From the NCBI GenBank assembly GCA_963743915.1, contig CAVURN010000003.1, forward strand, positions 96,001 through 160,000: a DNA stretch of 64,000 bases, given 5' to 3'. The DNA comes from an uncultured Actinomycetota bacterium (lineage in GTDB: Bacteria; Actinomycetota; Actinomycetes; JAHEKZ01). How positions within the stretch are numbered: position 1 is the stretch's first letter; each line of letters opens with the position of its first letter. The position numbers and the translations under genes were made by a program. Positions 1-44,211 of the stretch are shown here, one piece after another. A model generated the notes under the pieces. That model saw only the letters and a program-made list of their open reading frames with translations. It was not told the origin of the DNA and made no database searches.

Positions 1-1737
1 TCACGCCTCGGGGCGACGCTGCTGCTCGGGCTGCCGCTGCTGCTGCTGCTGTTCCCCGACGGCACGCTGCCGCACCACCGCGGGTGGCGCGTCGCGTCCG
101 TGGTGAGCCTGTGCCTCACGGCGGTGCTGCCGGTCGTGCTGCTGGTGGCGCCGTCCGAGGCGCTCATCGAGTTCGCCGGAGTCACCCCGCCACCGGAGGT
201 CATGGCACTCAACCTCGACCCGATGTCGATCACCCTGACCTACGACATCTGGGCGACGCTGTTGCGCATCGGGTACGCGTCAGCGGCGGCAAGTCTGCTC
301 GTGCCGTTCGGCGTCGTCGTGCACCGGTATCGCGCATCCACCGGAGACCGACGCCTGCAGATGCGCTGGCTGGTCTGGGCAGCGCTCGTCGACCTCTTCG
401 CGGTGGTGCTGCCCTTGACCTTCCCCGACCCGTTCGCCGGGCTGTCGCTGTCCATCGCGGTCGCGGTGACCGCGGCGGCGATCGTCGTCGCGGTGACGCG
501 CTACCGGCTCTACGACATCGACCGCCTGCTGTCGGCCACGGTCGTGTACGGGCTGCTCGCCGTCTCGGTGGTCGTCGTCGACCTCGCCGTGTTCGCCATG
601 GCCGGCTCGCTCATCGGGGAGCGGGACGCCGCTCTGGTGGCGATCGCCGTCGTCGCCGTGGTCTACACGCCCCTGCGGGCCCGACTGTGGTCCGTGGTCC
701 GACGGGCGGTGCGCGGCTCGCGCGAGGACCCGTACGCAGCCGTGTCGACACTGGCCCACCGGCTCGAGCAGGCCACCGACCAGCGCGGGCAGCTCGCCGC
801 CACGGCCACGGCGCTGGCGGAGGCCTTCCGGCTGCCCTATGTGCGGATCGAGCTGCTCGGCGCGTCCGGTGACACCGTCGAGGTGTCGCACGGGACGCCG
901 AGCGGCGTCGAGGTGGTGCTGCCGGTGACTTACCAGGGCGAACCGGCAGGACGCCTCGTGCTCTGCTCGGCCGGCGAGGCCTCCCTCTCGGACCGCGACC
1001 AGCAGCTGCTCGGTGACCTGGTGCGGCAGGCCGTGGTGGCTGCTCGCGCCAGCGAGCTGAATGCCGCACTGCAGCGGCACCGGGAACAGCTGGTGCTCGC
1101 GCGCGAGGAGGAGCGCCGACGCATTCGACGCGACCTGCACGACAGCCTGGGTCCCACCCTCGGGGCGGTGACGCTGCGGATCGAGACGGCGCGCAATCTC
1201 GCGGTGTCCGACCCCGTACGGGCGGATGTGGTGCTGCGCGAGACAACCGACCAGGTGCGGGACGTGCTCGCCGAGGTGCGCCGGCTCGCCCACGGCTTGC
1301 GTCCGCCGGTGCTCGACGAGCTCGGGCTGGTGCGCGCTCTGGAGCAGCAGGCTGAGGCGCTCGACAGTGACGCACTGCGGGTCCGGGTGCACGCCGAAGG
1401 AGTGGCGGAGCTGCCGGCTGCCGTCGAGGTGGCGGCGTACCGGATCGCGTCAGAGGCGCTCACCAACGTGCAGCGTCACGCACGCGCGTCACGGTGCCAG
1501 GTGCTGCTGGCGGTGGAGAAGGGTGCAGACAAGCACGCCGCCCAGCTGGTGGTCACGGTGACCGACGACGGCGTGGGCATCGACCCGGCCGGGGCATCCG
1601 GTGTCGGGATGCTCTCGATCCGCGAACGGGCCACCGAGCTCGGCGGGGAGGCGACTGCGATCGCCGCGGAGGAGGGTGGCACGGTGGTCACTGCCCGGTT
1701 GCCGTTCACTCCGCTCGAGGTGCCCACCGATGTCTGA
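1..1737 (+). CDS. Membrane sensor histidine kinase, NarX/HisKA_3 type (5' truncated by window edge)
   Basis: TM helices, then EERRRIRRDLHDSLG H-box, EALTNVQRHA N-box, DDGVG and GVGMLSIRERA. Frame is open from base 1. Confidence 0.93.
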   Translation, partial: SRLGATLLLGLPLLLLLFPDGTLPHHRGWRVASVVSLCLTAVLPVVLLVAPSEALIEFAGVTPPPEVMALNLDPMSITLTYDIWATLLRIGYASAAASLLVPFGVVVHRYRASTGDRRLQMRWLVWAALVDLFAVVLPLTFPDPFAGLSLSIAVAVTAAAIVVAVTRYRLYDIDRLLSATVVYGLLAVSVVVVDLAVFAMAGSLIGERDAALVAIAVVAVVYTPLRARLWSVVRRAVRGSREDPYAAVSTLAHRLEQATDQRGQLAATATALAEAFRLPYVRIELLGASGDTVEVSHGTPSGVEVVLPVTYQGEPAGRLVLCSAGEASLSDRDQQLLGDLVRQAVVAARASELNAALQRHREQLVLAREEERRRIRRDLHDSLGPTLGAVTLRIETARNLAVSDPVRADVVLRETTDQVRDVLAEVRRLAHGLRPPVLDELGLVRALEQQAEALDSDALRVRVHAEGVAELPAAVEVAAYRIASEALTNVQRHARASRCQVLLAVEKGADKHAAQLVVTVTDDGVGIDPAGASGVGMLSIRERATELGGEATAIAAEEGGTVVTARLPFTPLEVPTDV

Positions 1738-38092: not shown

Positions 38093-38852
38093 TCAGCTGC
38101 GCACTGCCGGCTCTCGCCCGCCTCGGCGTCCACGACCACCGGCATCCGACTCCGCCAGCGCAGCCACGTCGCGTCGTCTGTGACCAGCTCGCACATCAGG
38201 TGCGCGACGTTGGCCATCCGGGTGTGGTCCGGACGGAAGAGGCTGCTCACGATCGCCTCGTGGACGACGTACTCGCCGACATCGCCGTCCTCGAGGGTGT
38301 CGGGGCGCACCACGACCCATTGCAGGTGTGGATCGTTGGGCCCGACCTCGTGAGCGAGGAAGTCCGCCGCACGTTGGTTGTCACGGGACGGCGGAAGCAC
38401 GAGCCGCAGAGCCCCGAGGAAGGCGCGCTGCCCTGCACCGCGCTGCGCGTCCACGCTGCCCGGGCTGGTTCACCGAGACGCTGCCCATCAGGACCAGCCG
38501 CACCGGCGTTGGCGGCGGGCTCACCTCGATGGCTTCGCGTACCTGACGTACGGCGTGGCCGACCAGGTCATACGGAGGCCCGAGCACACCGCGGACGCTG
38601 ATGGAGTGGCCCAGGCACGAGATCACGGCGCCGCAGCCGTCGAGGTGTCCGACCAGGATCGGCAGTCGGCAGCGTGAGCAGGTCGGCCTCCACCACCTCC
38701 AGCAGCGGGTGACCGACGACTTCCGCGGGCAGCCGGTCGGCGGATCGCACGATCGCGCGGACGGCGACCCCACGATCGAGCAGCTGTGCGGTGACGCGTC
38801 CGCCGGTCCGACCGGTGGCGCCGAGGACCAGAACGTGACGTGTGGCGTCCAT
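38093..38852 (-). CDS. NAD(P)-binding Rossmann-fold oxidoreductase (frameshifted)
   Basis: VLVLGATGRTG, AVISCLGH, WVVVRPD, RMANVAH. Confidence 0.8.
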
Positions 38853-38874
38853 GATGTGCTCCCTTACGAGTGGG

Positions 38875-39579
38875 TCAGCGGCTGGCGACCAGTGGCACGT
38901 CCGACGCGACCTCGCGCGGAGCCACGTGCTCGCGCAGCAGGCAGATGCCGAGGCCGGTGAACCAGACGATGACCAGCAGGCCGAACACGACTGCGACGGC
39001 AGCCAGACCCGGGACCGTCGAGATGATCCCCGCGGCGCCGGCGATGATGCCCGACCCAGCGTCAGCCACGTCGGCAGCGCGTGCCCGCGCAGCGCGACCA
39101 GGCTCACCAGCAGCACCCACGTGCCACCGAGAACCTCGCCGCCGGCTCCGCCGAGGCCCAGCGTCACGGGGTAGATGGCCTGCCAGGCACCGACAGCGGT
39201 CGCCGGATCGGTCTCGTGCAGGTCGATCACCGAGTTCATGCCGACGATGAAGACCATCCCGCTGGCCACGAGCACGCCGGCCCAGATCACGCCGATGGCG
39301 GCGGCGACCCGTGATGTCGCTGGTGCGATGCCGACCAGTCGCTCGTGCATTCCCAGCGCCAGGACGGCCAGCACCACGCCGAACGCCACATAGGCGATCA
39401 GGTACATGACGTGAAGGCCGAGCTGGTGGTCGATCAGCAGCTGAACCTGTTCGCCGGGATCGGTGACCGTCGGCATGTTGGTGCCGACCAGGAAGTAGAA
39501 CATCGCAGCGACCAAGGCCACTGCGAGGTAGAGAGCGGCGAAGCCTGAGGCTCGTCGCGCTGGAGTTCATGGTGGTCAT
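38875..39579 (-). CDS. DUF4386-like membrane protein (frameshifted)
   Basis: Multi-TM; IWAGVLVASGM, GLGGAGGEVLGGTW, FGLLVIVWF. Confidence 0.75.
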   Translation of the reverse strand: MTTMNSSATSLRLRRSLPRSGLGRCDVLLPGRHQHADGHRSRRTGSAADRPPARPSRHVPDRLCGVRRGAGRPGAGNARATGRHRTSDITGRRRHRRDLGRRARGQRDGLHRRHELGDRPARDRSGDRCRCLAGHLPRDAGPRRSRRRGSRWHVGAAGEPGRAARARAADVADAGSGIIAGAAGIISTVPGLAAVAVVFGLLVIVWFTGLGICLLREHVAPREVASDVPLVASR

Positions 39580-39725
39580 GGGAAACCTCCTTGGCGCGTC
39601 GTTGACGGCGCTCGTCCATGTCCTACCTGCAGTTTTGCGCGTTTCGAGGGCCGGCCAGAAGTGTCGAACGTCCCCGTTTTCGCGCAGCAGCTACGGCCTG
39701 TCGGTGGGGAGTGCCATGCTTCCGG

Positions 39726-39836
39726 CGGATCACGAAGACCGGTCAGCCCCTGGACATGACCGGCTGGCAACCTCGCGTCCGCGCAAGGTGCCCTCCAGGG
39801 AAGATCCGGCCACCCGATCCCGGGTGGCAAGGGCGG
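39726..39836 (+). ncRNA. SAM-IV (SAM-I clan) riboswitch
   Basis: P1 CGGAUC/GAUCCG; J1/2 ACGA; P2 CCGGUCA/UGACCGG; PK1 CCCUGG/CCAGGG; P3 GGCAACC...GGUGCC; P5 GCCACCCG/CGGGUGGC; PK2 CCGC/GCGG. -10 CATGCT at 39715-39720. Confidence 0.85.
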
Positions 39837-39867
39837 CTCTCCTCGGAGCCTGACGAAGGGACCCACC

Positions 39868-40132
39868 ATGCCCACCAGCGACCCGCGTGACTGGCATCCG
39901 GAGCTTGCCGGACCTCGTGATTCACAGCTCGCCGCTCAGTTCGCGGCCCTCATCGTCGGTGCGGACGGCGTCGGCGACGAGCCTGCGCCGGGCACCCGGT
40001 TGGAACGGGCGAACCGGGTGTGGGACGCACAGGAGTCCGGACAGATCACGGAAGCCGAGGCTTACCTGCAGATCCGCGAGCTGATGCTCGAGGCCATTGC
40101 AGAGGCCGAGGCGGGAAGAGGACGCGGGCTGA
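39868..40132 (+). CDS. Small acidic hypothetical protein downstream of the SAM riboswitch (about 87 aa if one extra G is removed; as sequenced the ORF runs to 40302)
   Basis: GAAGGGA RBS; MPTSDPRDWHPEL...GQITEAEAYLQIRELMLEAIAEAE. Removing one G near 40114 gives ...EEDAG-TGA. Confidence 0.65.
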
Positions 40133-40210
40133 TCGAACGCCGATTCCGGAGCACGTGGCTACCCGAGGCCGCTCAGGTGCGCATCAGCGCCGGATTGACG
40201 GCCGGGCCAA

Positions 40211-40408
40211 TCAGTCCTCCATCAGGCGGGCGAACTGCTCCCACGACTTGCGGACGATGTTCTTACCTCGACCGGGACGCCAGTCGACCGTCCCCTTGCT
40301 GATGCGCAGCTCGCCCAGCTTCACGTCGTCGGAGTACACGAAGAACGTGAAGTCGCTGTTGATGACCTGCTTCGGAGGCTGAACGATCTCGACGCGGTGC
40401 TCCGGCAC
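40211..40408 (-). CDS. Small hypothetical protein (65 aa)
   Basis: GGAGG RBS then GTG; NSDFTFFVYSDDVKLGELRISKGTVDWRP...SWEQFARLME. Confidence 0.75.
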   Translation of the reverse strand: MPEHRVEIVQPPKQVINSDFTFFVYSDDVKLGELRISKGTVDWRPGRGKNIVRKSWEQFARLMED

Positions 40409-40513
40409 GGTGACCTCCCTGGTGTGCGGACCCATTGTGACGGAGTAGGCAGGTTTGTGACCTCGATGTGCGGGGTAGGTGTCGCGTCGCCACCACCACC
40501 AACGGAGGTCGTT

Positions 40514-40843
40514 GTGACACTGGATCCCGGACAAGTGAAGTCCGCTCTTGCAGGCTTGCAGGGCTGGCAGTACGAGGACGGCGCACTGGTCCGCGGGGTA
40601 CCGGTCGTGGAGGACAGCCGTCAGGGGCTGGTCGAAGCGGTGGCGCGGATCGCCGAGGAGTCCGTGGGGAGGCCCGAGGTTCACCTGCAGCCCGATCTTG
40701 TGGTGCTCCGGGTAGGAGACCCCGCCCTCGGTGGAGTCACCCCGGATGACGTCGAGCTCGCGGCACGCATAGACCAAGCGCTCGTGGGGTCGATACCGGA
40801 TCGCGGCGATTCTTCCGAGGGTCCAACTCCAGGCCGAGCGTGA
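40514..40843 (+). CDS. Pterin-4a-carbinolamine dehydratase-like protein
   Basis: LQGWQY...VARIAEE...GGVTPDDVELAARID. GGAGG RBS. Confidence 0.7.
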   Translation: MTLDPGQVKSALAGLQGWQYEDGALVRGVPVVEDSRQGLVEAVARIAEESVGRPEVHLQPDLVVLRVGDPALGGVTPDDVELAARIDQALVGSIPDRGDSSEGPTPGRA

Positions 40844-40855
40844 AGGGAGGCCATC

Positions 40856-41710
40856 GTGGCTCAGGGTGAACGCCCTCCCCAGCAGCAGGATCCACCCGGT
40901 CGGACCAGCGCCATGCGGCCCAGACCCCTGGACTCGATGAGCGACTACGTAGGTTCCGGTCTACTCGTGGGACGCAAAGCCCTGATTACCGGCGGGGACT
41001 CCGGGATCGGTCGAGCCGTGGCGGTGGCGTTCGCGAAGGAAGGTGCCGATGTCGCGATCGGCTACCTGTCTGAGCACGACGATGCACATGAGACCGAGCG
41101 ACTCGTGAAGGAGTCGGGTCGCCGCTGTGTGCTGCTGCCGGGCGACTTGTCGGATGAAGGGCACTGTCGTGCCATGGCGTCACTCGCGCTGTCGGACCTT
41201 GGCGGGATCGACCTCCTGGTGAACAACCTGGCAACCCAGCAGCCACAGGAGAGGTTCGAGGACATCACCACCGAGCAGTGGATGCGTACGTTCGACGTCA
41301 ACATCCACACGTACTTCTTCATGACCCGCGCCGTGCTCCCGCACCTGGAGCGCGGCGCCTCCATCATCAACACCGCGTCGATCAATGGTCTGCGGGGTAA
41401 CGGGCACCTCATTGACTACAGCGCGACGAAGGGGGCGATTCTCGCGTTCACGTACTCGCTGGCACAGGCGCTGATCGACCGCGGTATCCGGGTCAACAGC
41501 GTCGCGCCAGGACCGGTGTGGACGCCCCTGATTCCTTCCACCATGGATCCCGAACAGGTGGCGTCCTTCGGTCAGCAGGCGCCGCTGGGTCGAGCGGCGC
41601 AACCAGATGAGATCGCGCCGTCCTACGTCTTCTTCGCGTCGGGTCGCCTGTCCAGCTACTACAGCGGTGAGGTACTCGCGCCGATCGGCGGCGAGACGCT
41701 GCCCGGCTAG
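40856..41710 (+). CDS. SDR oxidoreductase, general-stress YhdF/YghA-like
   Basis: TGGDSGIGRA, YSATKGA, VAPGPVWTPL, RAAQPDEIAP. Confidence 0.94.
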   Translation: MAQGERPPQQQDPPGRTSAMRPRPLDSMSDYVGSGLLVGRKALITGGDSGIGRAVAVAFAKEGADVAIGYLSEHDDAHETERLVKESGRRCVLLPGDLSDEGHCRAMASLALSDLGGIDLLVNNLATQQPQERFEDITTEQWMRTFDVNIHTYFFMTRAVLPHLERGASIINTASINGLRGNGHLIDYSATKGAILAFTYSLAQALIDRGIRVNSVAPGPVWTPLIPSTMDPEQVASFGQQAPLGRAAQPDEIAPSYVFFASGRLSSYYSGEVLAPIGGETLPG

Positions 41711-41723
41711 CCGACCGGCGCGG

Positions 41724-44211
41724 TCAGACGCCGACGCGCGCCGGCTCGTCCGGCTCGATGTCCTCGATCTCGGACGCGCCGGCCTCGATGTCCTCGTCGG
41801 ACTCGACGGAGACGTGCGGCAGCACCCGGTCCAGCCAGCCCGGCAGCCACCAGTTCGCCTTGCCCAGGATGGCCATCAGCGACGGCACCAGCACGAGACG
41901 CACGACGAACGCGTCCAGCAGCACCGCCGTCGACAGCGCGACTCCGAACAGCTTGATGATCGGGTCGTTGCCCAGGACGAACGCACCGAAGACGCTGGTC
42001 ATGATGGCGGCGGCGATCGCGACGACGCGTCCGGAGCCGGCCAGACCACGGCGGACCGCCTTGCGGTTGTCGCCGGTGTGCAGCCACTCCTCGTGCATCC
42101 GGCTGACCAGGAACACCTGGTAGTCGCAGGACAGCCCGAAGAGGATCGCGAACACCATGATCGGCAGGAACGGGAAGATCGGGCCGGTCGCCTGCAGGTT
42201 GATCAGGTCGCCGAACCAGCCCCACTGGAAGACCGCGACGGTGATGCCCATCGCCGCCGCCAGCGACAGCAGGCTCGACAGCGCCCCGGTCGCCGCCACC
42301 GTCACCGAGCGGAACAGCACCACGAGGGCCAGGAAGCCCAGGCCGACGACGATCAGCAGGAACCACGGCAGTGCGTCGGTCAGCACCTTGGTGAAGTCCA
42401 CCGTCACCGCCTGGAAGCCACCGACGTACGCCTGCGCACCGGTGTCGGCCTCGACGCGCCGGGATGATGTCGTCGCGGACGTGGAAGAGCAGATCCGTGG
42501 TCGCCTCGTCCTGCGGCGCGGTCGTCGGGTACAGCTGGATCGGCACGACGGTGGCGTCCTCGGCCACCGGCGGTGCCGCCGCGAGCGCCACACCCGGGTC
42601 GGCCATCAGCGCGTCGGTGAGCTGAGTCGACCGCGTCCTGGTTGCCTGCTTCGGGCAGCTCCACGGCGATGTAGAACGGTCCGTTGACGCCGGGGCCGAA
42701 TCCCTCGGCGGTCAGGTCGTAGGCGATGCGCGGCGGCGTGCCCGGCGCCGTGCCGCCGTCGTCGGAGAAGCCCAGGCGCAGCGACAGCATCGGGATGGCG
42801 ATCACCAGCATCACGATCAGCGCGATGCTGCCCAGCAGCCACGGACGCCCCTGCAGCCAGTTGCCGTAGCGCGCGAAGGCGCTCGGGTGGTGCAGCTCCG
42901 GAGCCTTGCCGCCCTTCACGAACCGGCGGTACAGCCAGCCGACGATGGTCACCGGCAGGACGAGCACCCAGCCGAGGTAGCGGAAGACGCGCCCGATCAC
43001 GTGCGGGACGCCGCTCAGGCGCTGACGCGGCACCGCCTCGCCGTCGGTGATCCACGCCATGCGTCCGGCGAAGGCCCAGGTGCCGAGCAGCGAGAGCACG
43101 GCCGGCAGGAGCAGCAGCGCGCCCGACCATCACCATGAACACGGTGGCTGCGGACGCGACCGCGATGCCGTTGAAGAAGTTGATCCGCATCACGAACAGG
43201 CCGAGCAGCGCGATGATCACCGTGGCTGCGGCGAACTGCACCGCGCGTCCGGACGTGCGGACGGACTCCAGCGCCGCCGCGCGCGGCTCGCGTCCGTGGA
43301 TGATCGCTTCGCGATAGCGGTTGATGACGAACAGCGAGTAGTCGATGCCGACACCGAGACCGATCATCGACGCCAGGATCGGCGCGAACAGGGCGACGTC
43401 GAGCTGGGCGGCGACCAGCGGCAGGACGAAACCGGTGCTGATCGCGACGGACACGGCCGCGGAGACGATCGGCAGCAGGGCCCCGGCCAGCGCACCGAAG
43501 GCGAAGAGCAGGATGACGAGCGCGACCGCGACACCGATGCTCTCCGACGACGGCTCCTCGCCCGAGACGAACGCGAAGACGCCGTTGGCGCCGACCTGCA
43601 GGCCGTCCTGACCGTTCTGCGCCTCGATGTGCTCGAGCGAGTCGAGAATGAGCTCGCTGTCGAGGTCGTCGAAGGTCTCGCCCTCGAAGGTGACCGTCGC
43701 GTAGGCGACATGGCCGTCGGGACTGACGCCGGCGGGGCCGAAGTGCGCCATGGCGCCCTGCGCGGCCTCCGACGGCTCCTCGGCGGGCTGCTCCTCCGCG
43801 GGAGGCTGTCCTCCCTGGTCGCCCTCGCCTGCGGTCGGCTGCTGCTCGGGGCAGTCGGTGCCGAGCGGGTCGCCGTAGGGACGCCACCACGCACAGGACG
43901 CCCTCGGACTTGGAGACCTCCGTCATCACCGCCGTCATCGGCTGCTGCACCGCGTCGTCGGTGACGGGGACGCTCTCGTCGTCCGGGCTCCAGACGATCT
44001 GGCCCTCCAGACCCGAGCCGGTGCCGGCCGAGCCGGACAGCTCGCTCAGCAGCTCCTGCGCGGTGGTCGACTCGGTGTCAGGCAGCTCGAAGTCGTCGTT
44101 GTACTCGCCGCCGAACTGGATGCTGAGGACGATGATCGCCGCCATCAGCGCGATCCAGGTGACCAGGGCCCACCATGGCTGGCGGACGGCCCATTGCGAG
44201 ATTCGGCCCAT
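41724..44211 (-). CDS. MMPL-family transporter (multiple frameshifts)
   Basis: GLGVGIDYSLF, GFGPGVNGP, FAILFGLSCDYQVFLVSR, LLDAFVVRLVLVP, NWWLPGWLDR. Confidence 0.9.

What the first reader, a model, noticed from the sequence alone, without database searches (positions are those of the whole stretch)
39715..40132. SAM-IV riboswitch controlling a small acidic protein of unknown function
Seen: a complete SAM-IV architecture (P1, P2, P3, P5 and both pseudoknots). It keeps the SAM-contacting elements of the SAM-I clan: AUC/GAU in P1, the J1/2 G, and GCAACC...GGUGC in P3. A -10 box lies about 6 bp upstream and an RBS+ATG about 30 bp downstream. Known: SAM-IV switches usually precede sulfur or methionine genes such as metX/metY, cysteine desulfurases and transporters. 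Here the only downstream gene is a roughly 87-aa Asp/Glu-rich helical protein with no motif I recognise, followed by a convergent gene, so it looks monocistronic. Inference: it may be an undescribed SAM-responsive small protein, for example a regulator or adaptor of sulfur or methyl metabolism.
Basis: partly seen in the sequence, partly recalled or inferred. Interest (0 to 1): 0.8.

Follow-up and report, generated by a model that had tools for sequence, protein, structure and literature searches.

The report
SAM-IV riboswitch before phage-related small protein
A genuine SAM-sensing RNA switch sits in front of a tiny, very acidic protein of unknown function that is distantly related to the first gene of some Streptomyces phages, so it may link SAM levels to something other than sulfur metabolism.

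Summary
Rfam's SAM-IV model matches window 39728-39839 (+) over its full length: 65.5 bits against a cut-off of 38, E 2.4e-9. It is the only SAM-IV hit in this genome.

A ribosome-binding site and ATG (39868) follow 28 nt later. The window reads a 144-aa frame. All full-length homologues (16 protein clusters, all metagenomic) are 75-100 aa, and the closest ones end in an acidic tail. The window encodes that tail (EEDAG, then a stop at 40130-40132) in the +1 frame. A related strain's contig lacks one base at about 40112.

It is probably an assembly indel, because neighbouring genes are broken in the same way. The gene is monocistronic and faces a convergent gene.

New here: the family is a remote relative of PHROG 4207 (hhalign 96.6%, E 6.7e-10). 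PHROG 4207 is gene 1 of Arquatrovirinae Streptomyces phages. No Pfam, NCBIfam, PADLOC, PDB or fold match was found.

Constrained folding suggests a translational OFF switch. This is inferred, not shown.

Riboswitch linkage is shown only for close strains. It could not be tested for the 44-54%-identical homologues and is absent from 5 of 5 PHROG-type copies. The genome's SAM-I riboswitch controls the methionine-type genes.

The parts
39728..39839 (+). SAM-IV aptamer (P1, P2, P3, P5, PK-1, PK-2)
   Evidence: RF00634 full-length hit, 65.5 bits against cut-off 38, E 2.4e-9. 27 of 28 consensus pairs are standard.
39748..39801 (+). PK-1: CCCUGG (39748-53) pairs with CCAGGG (39796-801)
   Evidence: Read directly from the sequence. 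The same pairing appears as a long-range helix in the unconstrained MFE fold.
39779..39836 (+). PK-2: P3 loop CCGC (39779-82) pairs with 3' tail GCGG (39833-36)
   Evidence: Read directly from the sequence, at the positions of the consensus PK-2 strands in the cmscan alignment. PK-2 architecture as described in passages of PMC6890682.
39835..39850 (+). Local hairpin (6 pairs, CCUC loop) that shares G39835-G39836 with the PK-2 strand; proposed anti-anti-SD element
   Evidence: Present in the unconstrained MFE and ensemble. Its role is inferred.
39838..39845 (+). Pyrimidine tract, proposed anti-SD
   Evidence: With the aptamer and PK-2 enforced, the MFE fold pairs it with 39854-39861. Inferred.
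39855..39861 (+). Shine-Dalgarno-like GAAGGGA, 6 nt before the ATG
   Evidence: Sequence. Unpaired probability of G39855/A39856 falls from 0.86/0.91 (free) to 0.19/0.45 (aptamer and PK-2 enforced).
39868..40132 (+). Small acidic protein gene: 87 aa if one base of the run at about 40112-40115 is skipped. As assembled, the frame runs on to 40302 (144 aa).
   Evidence: Homologues of 86-89 aa at 72-91% identity. The +1 frame reads EEDAG then a stop. GC by codon position is 0.78/0.50/0.78 for codons 1-82 and 0.63/0.76/0.61 after 40114 in the assembled frame.
40111..40115 (+). Site of the one extra base (GCGGG) that breaks the frame
   Evidence: The X5 contig has 1 base left out at 40112. An X1 contig whose loose end lies before 40118 reads in frame to the TGA at 40130.
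40211..40435 (-). Convergent 74-aa gene (context only): ends 78 nt after the corrected stop of the small gene
   Evidence: ORF list. GC3 0.89. Homologues in 2 of 19 genomes of the order. No Pfam, NCBIfam, PHROG or PADLOC hit.

Best explanation
A functional SAM-IV riboswitch heads a one-gene mRNA. The mRNA encodes an 87-aa, strongly acidic, all-helical protein from a rare family that is remotely related to gene 1 of Arquatrovirinae Streptomyces phages (PHROG 4207).

Proposed mechanism (inferred). When SAM is bound, the 3' tail is held in pseudoknot PK-2. This breaks the small hairpin at 39835-39850. The freed pyrimidine tract (39838-45) then pairs with the ribosome-binding site (39854-61). On this model the protein is made when SAM is low and shut off when SAM is high.

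With no catalytic motif and a simple helical fold, the protein most likely acts by binding another macromolecule, as many small acidic phage early proteins do.

The riboswitch-plus-gene module looks like an accessory, horizontally moving cassette, not part of the core methionine regulon. The single extra G that breaks the frame in this assembly is most likely an assembly indel.
For: Shown:
- Full-length SAM-IV hit, 65.5 bits, the only one in the genome.
- Helices and both pseudoknots are present.
- The pocket positions named in PMC6890682 (SAM-IV numbering 2-4, 7-8, 63-65, 77; passages) are kept in the cmscan alignment. Position 2 is A instead of G, and its P1 partner is U.
- Against the G007 copy, P2 shows two pairs changed on both sides, and P5 is a different sequence that still pairs (my reading).
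- The ORF is real: 16 protein clusters of 57-100 aa at E <= 3e-5 with a profile, and a conserved start and core.
- The changes I could read between the window and the X5 contig reproduce protein P0002 exactly: 7 synonymous changes and 9 changes giving 7 replacements (the table is truncated).
- The frameshift is corrected in relatives.
- Other genes nearby are split by indels. The DUF4386 gene is split, with a base missing at 39562 in three X1 contigs and one X5 contig. The MMPL gene is in three ORFs.
- Kinship with PHROG 4207: P0007 5e-9, P0006 4e-6; hhalign 96.6%, E 6.7e-10 over 51 columns.
- PHROG 4207 is gene 1 in 114 Streptomyces phage records.
- pI is 4.0-4.9 across the family.
- AlphaFold2 gives pLDDT 81, all helices.
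- Cassette behaviour: SAM-IV was found in G000 and in 1 of 13 other genomes of the genus. Synteny with G006 stops at about 39700. G007 and an X1 contig have different sequence upstream of the aptamer.
- Methionine-type genes (a PALP enzyme and a ThiS-family protein) lie behind a SAM-I riboswitch elsewhere in the genome.

Inferred: the OFF-switch model from constrained folding. No terminator-like site was found.
Against: - No DNA was obtainable for homologues P0003-P0017, so conserved riboswitch linkage is shown only for near-identical loci (about 95% DNA identity, runs X5 and X1).
- The PHROG-type relatives carry no riboswitch, 0 of 5 loci.
- The window's own protein does not hit phrog_4207 directly, with 0 families at E <= 1. 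The link rests on intermediate sequences and a profile comparison.
- In the folding model, G39858-G39859 of the SD are paired in both states.
- The cryo-EM paper reports the same aptamer fold with and without SAM (passages), so the PK-2 toggle is an assumption.
- There is no expression evidence. The one RNA-library contig laid covers only 40259-40411.
- No same-strain read covers 40112, so a real frameshift is not excluded.
- SAM binding itself is untested.
Confidence: 0.6

Rival explanations
1. The frameshift is real. In this strain the small gene is decaying or has a new 144-aa C-terminus, and the riboswitch now controls a pseudogene.
For: The assembled sequence reads 144 aa. The only contigs identical to the window (run X4, 0 differences) do not cover 40112, so the extra base is not contradicted for this strain. 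The module is patchy and so dispensable.
Against: At least two neighbouring genes are broken by similar single-base events, which fits assembly indels. After 40114 the assembled frame loses coding-like GC periodicity (0.63/0.76/0.61) and overlaps the convergent gene by about 90 nt. The aptamer and the first 82 codons are intact.
Confidence: 0.15
2. The regulated output is the transcript, not the protein. SAM-controlled read-through from the riboswitch runs antisense into the convergent 74-aa gene (40435-40211), and the small ORF is incidental.
For: No terminator-like structure lies between the two genes. The scan found 0 sites, and the fold of 40120-40225 has z = -1.33, with 21 of 200 shuffles folding as well. 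Riboswitch-controlled antisense RNAs are known in Clostridium and Listeria (recalled, not checked here).
Against: The ORF is conserved as a protein down to 44% identity, with a conserved start and length. No transcription terminator follows the aptamer, so a transcriptional switch is unsupported. The 74-aa gene occurs without the module in G012 and G017, and with a different neighbour in an X1 contig.
Confidence: 0.08
3. The aptamer is a diverged SAM-IV look-alike that senses a ligand other than SAM, for example SAH or another adenosyl compound. That would fit its unusual cargo.
For: Its score (65.5 bits) is well below the 94-118 bits of the seven SAM-IV hits in relatives that precede known-family genes. 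All six hits under 70 bits precede unknown ORFs or a contig end.
Against: All pocket positions listed for SAM-IV are kept, and the one change is compensated in P1. The lower score is explained by a divergent P2 loop and P5, and perhaps by assembly indels.
Confidence: 0.05

Closest known systems
SAM-IV riboswitches (Rfam RF00634) of Actinomycetes upstream of methionine/cysteine genes, e.g. the one before O-acetylhomoserine sulfhydrylase MAV_4315 in Mycobacterium avium (PMC3774663, passages)
   Same: Same aptamer architecture and the same pocket letters. Located in a 5' leader about 30 nt before a start codon. No intrinsic terminator, so translational control is likely.
   Different: The cargo is a small non-enzymatic protein of unknown function with phage kinship, not a sulfur or methionine gene. 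The score is lower than for the canonical copies in relatives (65 against 94-118 bits). The module is accessory and sits in different upstream contexts.
PHROG 4207: gene 1 (about 64-68 aa, hypothetical) at the left end of Arquatrovirinae (Camvirus, Likavirus) Streptomyces phage genomes
   Same: Shared core: an amphipathic F-A-A...G helix, a proline-rich loop (P-x-P), then L-x-R and a helix. hhalign 96.6%, E 6.7e-10. Small, acidic, no known function.
   Different: The window family has an extra N-terminal segment and a long acidic C-terminal helix. It lies in an ordinary chromosomal neighbourhood, not a prophage. It has a riboswitch, and the PHROG-type copies do not (0 of 5). The window protein itself does not reach the PHROG model.
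The SAM-I riboswitch (RF00162) of the same genome, G000:C5:540448-540579 (-)
   Same: Same ligand clan and the same cell, so both leaders should read the same SAM pool.
   Different: SAM-I precedes a PALP enzyme and a ThiS-family protein, i.e. sulfur-amino-acid-type genes. SAM-IV precedes only the small protein.

Membership tests
SAM-IV riboswitch (RF00634) | Covariance-model score above the curated gathering score, over the full model | tested here: met
   65.5 bits against 38, model positions 1-116 of 116, E 2.4e-9; 2.6e-11 per genome.
SAM-IV riboswitch (RF00634) | Helices P1, P2, P3 and P5 (no P4), plus two pseudoknots PK-1 and PK-2 | tested here: met
   27 of 28 consensus pairs are standard. 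PK-1 (6 pairs) and PK-2 (4 pairs) were read from the sequence. Architecture as in passages of PMC6890682.
SAM-IV riboswitch (RF00634) | SAM-I-like ligand pocket letters (SAM-IV numbering 2-4, 7-8, 63-65, 77) | tested here: met
   The cmscan alignment gives AUC, GA, UGC and A at these positions. Position 2 is A, paired to U. The position list comes from PMC6890682.
SAM-IV riboswitch (RF00634) | Binds SAM and changes gene expression | not testable with these tools
   Needs in-line probing or ITC and a reporter. Only a folding model is available.
SAM-IV riboswitch (RF00634) | Usual association with sulfur or methionine metabolism genes | tested here: not met
   The downstream gene has no Pfam or NCBIfam family. 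In relatives, five of the seven hits scoring 94 bits or more precede sulfur/methionine-type genes: Cys_Met_Meta_PP twice (one in the unpublished genome G025), Aminotran_5 twice, and an alpha/beta hydrolase. The other two precede an ABC permease and DUF1737.
PHROG 4207 (phage gene 1 family) | Significant match of the protein itself to the family model | tested here: not met
   Window protein: 0 PHROG families at E <= 1. Relatives: P0007 5.2e-9, P0006 4e-6, P0008 2e-3, P0003 0.036.
PHROG 4207 (phage gene 1 family) | Profile-level homology of the window's family to the phage family | tested here: met
   hhalign of A2 against A6: probability 96.6%, E 6.7e-10, 51 aligned columns.
PHROG 4207 (phage gene 1 family) | Location in a phage or prophage genome | tested here: not met
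   The neighbours are acyl-CoA dehydrogenase, an aldolase, DUF4386, an SDR, MMPL and an M20 peptidase. There is no tRNA in the window. No relatives were found in IMG/VR with two alignments.

The most novel reading that the evidence does not exclude
A domesticated phage early protein has been placed under a SAM sensor, so that it is made only when SAM runs low. One concrete version: the very acidic helical protein (net charge about -13 to -16 in 87 aa) is a DNA-mimic or inhibitor that restrains a SAM-dependent enzyme system, such as restriction-modification, when methyl-donor shortage would leave the chromosome under-methylated. That would be riboswitch-driven restriction alleviation. More broadly, SAM-IV leaders with lower scores may mark a hidden set of non-metabolic, SAM-responsive small proteins in Actinomycetes.
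Probability: 0.07. Interest if true: 0.85.

Novelty: new variant of a known kind. Interest (0 to 1): 0.45.

Why it matters
Genes behind riboswitches have repeatedly pointed to unknown biology of the sensed metabolite. This is a textbook SAM sensor wired to a protein that has no enzyme fold and no link to sulfur metabolism. Its only detectable relatives are the first gene of a group of Streptomyces phages.

If the pairing is functional, it gives a handle on two unknowns at once: what this phage early-gene family does, and which non-metabolic process an actinomycete adjusts when SAM is scarce.

It is also a practical caution. The gene would be mis-annotated from this assembly (144 aa instead of 87) because of a single-base indel.

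Tried and rejected
Searches for the protein's identity that found nothing:
- Pfam and NCBIfam on the small protein: only sub-threshold noise (DUF7146, E 0.018-0.064).
- PADLOC: none.
- PDB sequence profile: nothing significant (best E 0.82).
- Foldseek against PDB and BFVD: no match with E below 1.5.
- ESM Atlas: no usable hit.
- Longer, fused forms: none found; weak evidence by the tool's own note.

Attempts to get DNA of distant homologues, all empty:
- A1 and A3 in metagenome contigs.
- A3 in genome contigs.
- A3 and A1 in viral contigs.
- Profile searches of genomes found only G000 as a true member, plus PHROG-type or weak hits: 20 genomes of the order, 401 of the class, 401 of the phylum.

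Other checks:
- Read laying: parts of the stretch without cover in X1, X4 and X16 say nothing. X16 (an RNA library) covered only 40259-40411.
- Prophage context: rejected.
- Homology among the unknown ORFs behind other low-scoring SAM-IV hits: none by BLASTP, and no PHROG hits.
- SAM-I/IV (RF01725) in the own genome: no hit, but the control genomes were silent too, so this is uninformative.

Literature:
- Weinberg 2008 (PMC2327355) is not held.
- The supplements of Weinberg 2007, which list genes near SAM-IV, are closed. They might already show hypothetical small ORFs behind SAM-IV.
- Searches (listings; passages read) turned up no report of this pairing.

Full report
1. THE OBSERVATION

A gathering-threshold cmscan of the whole 64-kb window returns one hit: Rfam RF00634 (SAM-IV) at 39728-39839 on the + strand. 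It covers model positions 1-116 of 116, at 65.5 bits against a curated cut-off of 38, E 2.4e-9. A search of the whole assembly (2.92 Mb, 5 contigs, 90% complete) gives the same place as the only SAM-IV hit.

Projecting the consensus structure onto the sequence gives 27 standard pairs of 28:
- P1 39728-31/39803-06
- P2 39736-43/39759-65
- P3 39766-76/39783-92
- P5 39809-16/39821-28

The single A-C mismatch in P2 disappears if the strand is shifted by one base. Both pseudoknots can be read off the sequence: CCCUGG (39748-53) with CCAGGG (39796-801), and the P3 loop CCGC (39779-82) with the 3' tail GCGG (39833-36).

The cryo-EM paper on SAM-IV (PMC6890682; I read passages) lists the pocket positions as 2-4, 7-8, 63-65 and 77 in SAM-IV numbering. 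In the cmscan alignment these are AUC, GA, UGC and A. Only position 2 differs from the consensus (A for G), and its P1 partner is U.

One other genome of the genus carries a copy (G007, 61.3 bits, at the end of a contig). It shares the core nearly letter for letter. It has two P2 pairs changed on both sides, and a P5 of different sequence that still pairs (my reading). The aptamer is real.

2. THE GENE BEHIND IT

GAAGGGA (39855-61) and ATG (39868) follow the aptamer by 28 nt. As assembled, the frame runs 144 aa to 40302 and overlaps a convergent gene. Three lines of evidence show the true product is about 87 aa.

- Homologue length. A search of 5.8 billion proteins found three homologues of 86-89 aa at 72-91% identity. 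All end in an acidic tail just after the point matching window residue 82.
- The +1 frame. From 40115 the +1 frame of the window reads EEDAG and then a stop at 40130-40132.
- Related strains. I laid the contigs of four public runs on 39200-40900. A 1017-nt contig of run X5 covers 39370-40387 and has one base left out at 40112. An X1 contig with a loose end before 40118 reads in frame into the same stop.

The substitutions listed for the X5 contig, placed on the reading frame, reproduce protein P0002 exactly: R7H, A26G, V30I, G36S, D37E, G42S and Q59E. They comprise 7 synonymous changes against 9 changes giving 7 replacements. The table was truncated (32 of that contig's 46 differences were visible), so this is only a rough sign of purifying selection.

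GC by codon position is 0.78/0.50/0.78 for codons 1-82. In the assembled frame beyond 40114 it is 0.63/0.76/0.61, which is not coding-like.

Is the extra base real or an assembly error? The contigs identical to the window (run X4) do not cover the site, so this cannot be settled. Neighbouring genes are broken in the same way, though:
- The DUF4386 membrane-protein gene upstream is split. Three X1 contigs and the X5 contig all lack a base at 39562. The intact 250-aa version is seen in G006.
- The MMPL gene at 41724-43751 is in three ORFs.

I put the odds at roughly 85:15 for an assembly indel.

3. WHAT THE PROTEIN IS

No Pfam, NCBIfam or PADLOC family matches. No PDB sequence relative is significant (best E 0.82). 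An AlphaFold2 model built on eight sequences is confident (mean pLDDT 81) and all-helical, with helices at 19-30, 44-56 and 62-81. It has no Foldseek match better than E 1.5 in PDB or BFVD. The ESM Atlas gave nothing.

An exhaustive phmmer search of 1.84 billion representatives found 5 proteins. A profile search found 16 clusters of 57-100 aa. All are metagenomic and none is named. They fall into subgroups of about 87, 91-94 and 100 aa, plus a 75-aa outlier. They share the core helix F-A-A...G, a P-x-P loop, L-x-R and two more helices. All are acidic, with pI 4.0-4.9.

The one informative link came from PHROGs. phrog_4207 is hit by P0007 (5.2e-9), P0006 (4e-6), P0008 (2e-3) and P0003 (0.036), though not by the window protein itself.

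Two roughly 64-aa chromosomal ORFs turned up in the class-wide genome search (G306, G369). They hit that PHROG at 4e-21 and 4e-26.

By tblastn the PHROG corresponds to a hypothetical protein in 114 Streptomyces phage records. It is annotated as gene 1 at the far left end, on the reverse strand, in the cos-ended records (Arquatrovirinae: Camvirus, Likavirus). In a permuted record it lies at the head of a run of same-strand hypothetical genes, divergent from the structural genes.

A profile-profile comparison of the window's family (A2) with phage and chromosomal PHROG-type sequences (A6) gives 96.6% probability, E 6.7e-10, over 51 columns. I therefore treat the window protein as a remote relative of this phage family, not a member of it.

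4. CONTEXT AND DISTRIBUTION

The neighbours are ordinary chromosomal genes: acyl-CoA dehydrogenase, an HpcH-type aldolase, DUF4386, a pterin-4a-dehydratase-like gene, an SDR, MMPL and an M20 peptidase. The window holds no tRNA. This is not a prophage.

The organism is an uncultured member of the class Actinomycetes. The best named relative of a housekeeping-type protein is an "Actinomycetes bacterium" MAG at 83%. Its order holds only 20 species genomes in the collection.

The module is accessory:
- The protein query hits only G000 among 41 genomes.
- SAM-IV was found in G000 and in 1 of 13 other genomes of the genus. That search used stricter filters.
- The family profile finds only G000 as a true member among 20 genomes of the order, 401 of the class and 401 of the phylum.
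- DNA synteny with G006 runs through the two upstream genes at 78% identity and stops at about window 39700. There G006 has an unrelated gene and no riboswitch.
- G007 and one X1 contig have different sequence immediately upstream of the aptamer.

So the aptamer's 5' edge behaves like a cassette boundary.

The same genome has a SAM-I riboswitch (RF00162, 77.7 bits) in front of a PALP enzyme and a ThiS-family protein. Calling these a threonine-synthase-like and sulfur-carrier pair is my reading. The core sulfur-amino-acid genes thus have their own SAM sensor, and the SAM-IV module is an add-on.

5. IS THE PAIRING CONSERVED?

Only partly testable.
- Close relatives keep it. The X5 contig spans aptamer and ORF. 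None of its 32 visible substitutions falls in the 112-nt aptamer, though there is one single-base gap in P5. X1 contigs bridge 39594-39819 and 39790-40004. These are the same locus at about 95% identity, so they are not independent.
- For P0003-P0017 no DNA could be obtained.
- PHROG-type copies have no Rfam hit of any riboswitch class at E <= 1. This holds for 0 of 2 chromosomal loci and 0 of 3 phage loci.

Among the 13 SAM-IV hits in 10 of 41 related genomes, the pattern is as follows.
- The seven hits scoring 94-118 bits precede Cys_Met_Meta_PP (twice, one in the unpublished genome G025), Aminotran_5 (twice), an alpha/beta hydrolase, an ABC permease and DUF1737.
- The six hits under 70 bits, including this one, precede ORFs with no family or a contig end.
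- Those unknown ORFs are unrelated to one another and to PHROGs.

6. HOW IT PROBABLY WORKS (INFERRED)

No terminator-like element follows the aptamer or the gene, so translational control is the likely mode. It is also the mode usually assumed for SAM-IV (recalled).

In the unconstrained ensemble, the 3' tail forms a 6-pair hairpin (39835-39850), which uses G39835-G39836. The ribosome-binding site is then largely open.

When the aptamer helices are enforced and the PK-2 strand (39833-36) is withheld, the MFE fold pairs the pyrimidine tract 39838-45 with 39854-61. Unpaired probabilities change as follows:

| Position | Free | Aptamer + PK-2 enforced |
|---|---|---|
| C39854 | 0.88 | 0.29 |
| G39855 | 0.86 | 0.19 |
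| A39856 | 0.91 | 0.45 |
| G39860 | 0.57 | 0.11 |
| A39861 | 0.90 | 0.51 |
| A of AUG | 0.71 | 0.30 |
| U of AUG | 0.58 | 0.13 |
| G of AUG | 0.15 | 0.06 |

This supports an OFF switch: protein is made at low SAM.

Caveats:
- G39858-59 are paired in both states.
- The "free" ensemble is not a true apo aptamer.
- The cryo-EM study saw the same fold with and without ligand.

For the protein, the best I can commit to is a binding or modulating role rather than catalysis, by analogy with small acidic phage early proteins. My confidence in that part is about 0.3.

7. VERDICT

The riboswitch is an ordinary member of a known class. The cargo is unusual: it belongs to a rare family with no assigned function, and its only detectable kinship is to a phage gene.

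I found no report of such a pairing in the literature searches I ran. The founding SAM-IV paper was not available, and the supplementary gene lists of the 2007 survey are closed. Either may already list hypothetical ORFs behind SAM-IV.

The finding is a sound lead of moderate interest. Its weak points are the untested linkage in distant homologues, the lack of expression data, and an uncultured host.

Noticed in passing
window 39562; 38568-39579 (-); 41724-43751 (-): The assembly seems to carry frequent single-base indels. Three X1 contigs and one X5 contig lack a base at 39562. The DUF4386 membrane-protein gene is split across two frames (it is intact, 250 aa, in G006). The MMPL transporter gene is in three overlapping ORFs. 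Gene calls from this assembly need frameshift-aware handling.
   Followed up: partly
G000:C5:540448-540579 (-), locus L115: The same genome has a SAM-I riboswitch (RF00162, 77.7 bits) upstream of a PALP-family enzyme followed by a ThiS-family protein. So two different SAM riboswitch classes coexist, with the sulfur-amino-acid-type genes under SAM-I.
   Followed up: partly
L008 (G028), L009 (G024), L011 (G027), L013 (G028), L014 (G022): In related Actinomycetes, the SAM-IV hits scoring 48-65 bits precede ORFs of 51 aa (cut by a contig end) to 168 aa with no Pfam or PHROG family, unrelated to one another. One 94-bit hit precedes a DUF1737 protein. SAM-IV may control more uncharacterised genes than the textbook list suggests.
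   Followed up: partly
window 40211-40435 (-): A 74-aa gene convergent to the small ORF has strong coding signal (GC3 0.89) and no family in Pfam, NCBIfam, PHROGs or PADLOC. Homologues occur in 2 of 19 other genomes of the order (78% and 65% identity). The only contig of an RNA library laid here (X16) covers 40259-40411.
   Followed up: partly
L010 (G007:C26) about 440-490 and 584-1351 (-): Upstream of G007's copy of the aptamer lies a stretch that looks to me like the 3' half of a tRNA, although ARAGORN calls no tRNA there. There is also a 255-aa ORF unrelated to the window's upstream gene. This may be an integration scar; it was not tested.
   Followed up: no
L017 (G306) 1444-1641 (-), L018 (G369) 1429-1623 (-): Two genomes of another family of the class carry chromosomal roughly 64-aa ORFs that match phage family phrog_4207 at 4e-21 and 4e-26. 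Whether they lie in prophages was not examined.
   Followed up: no
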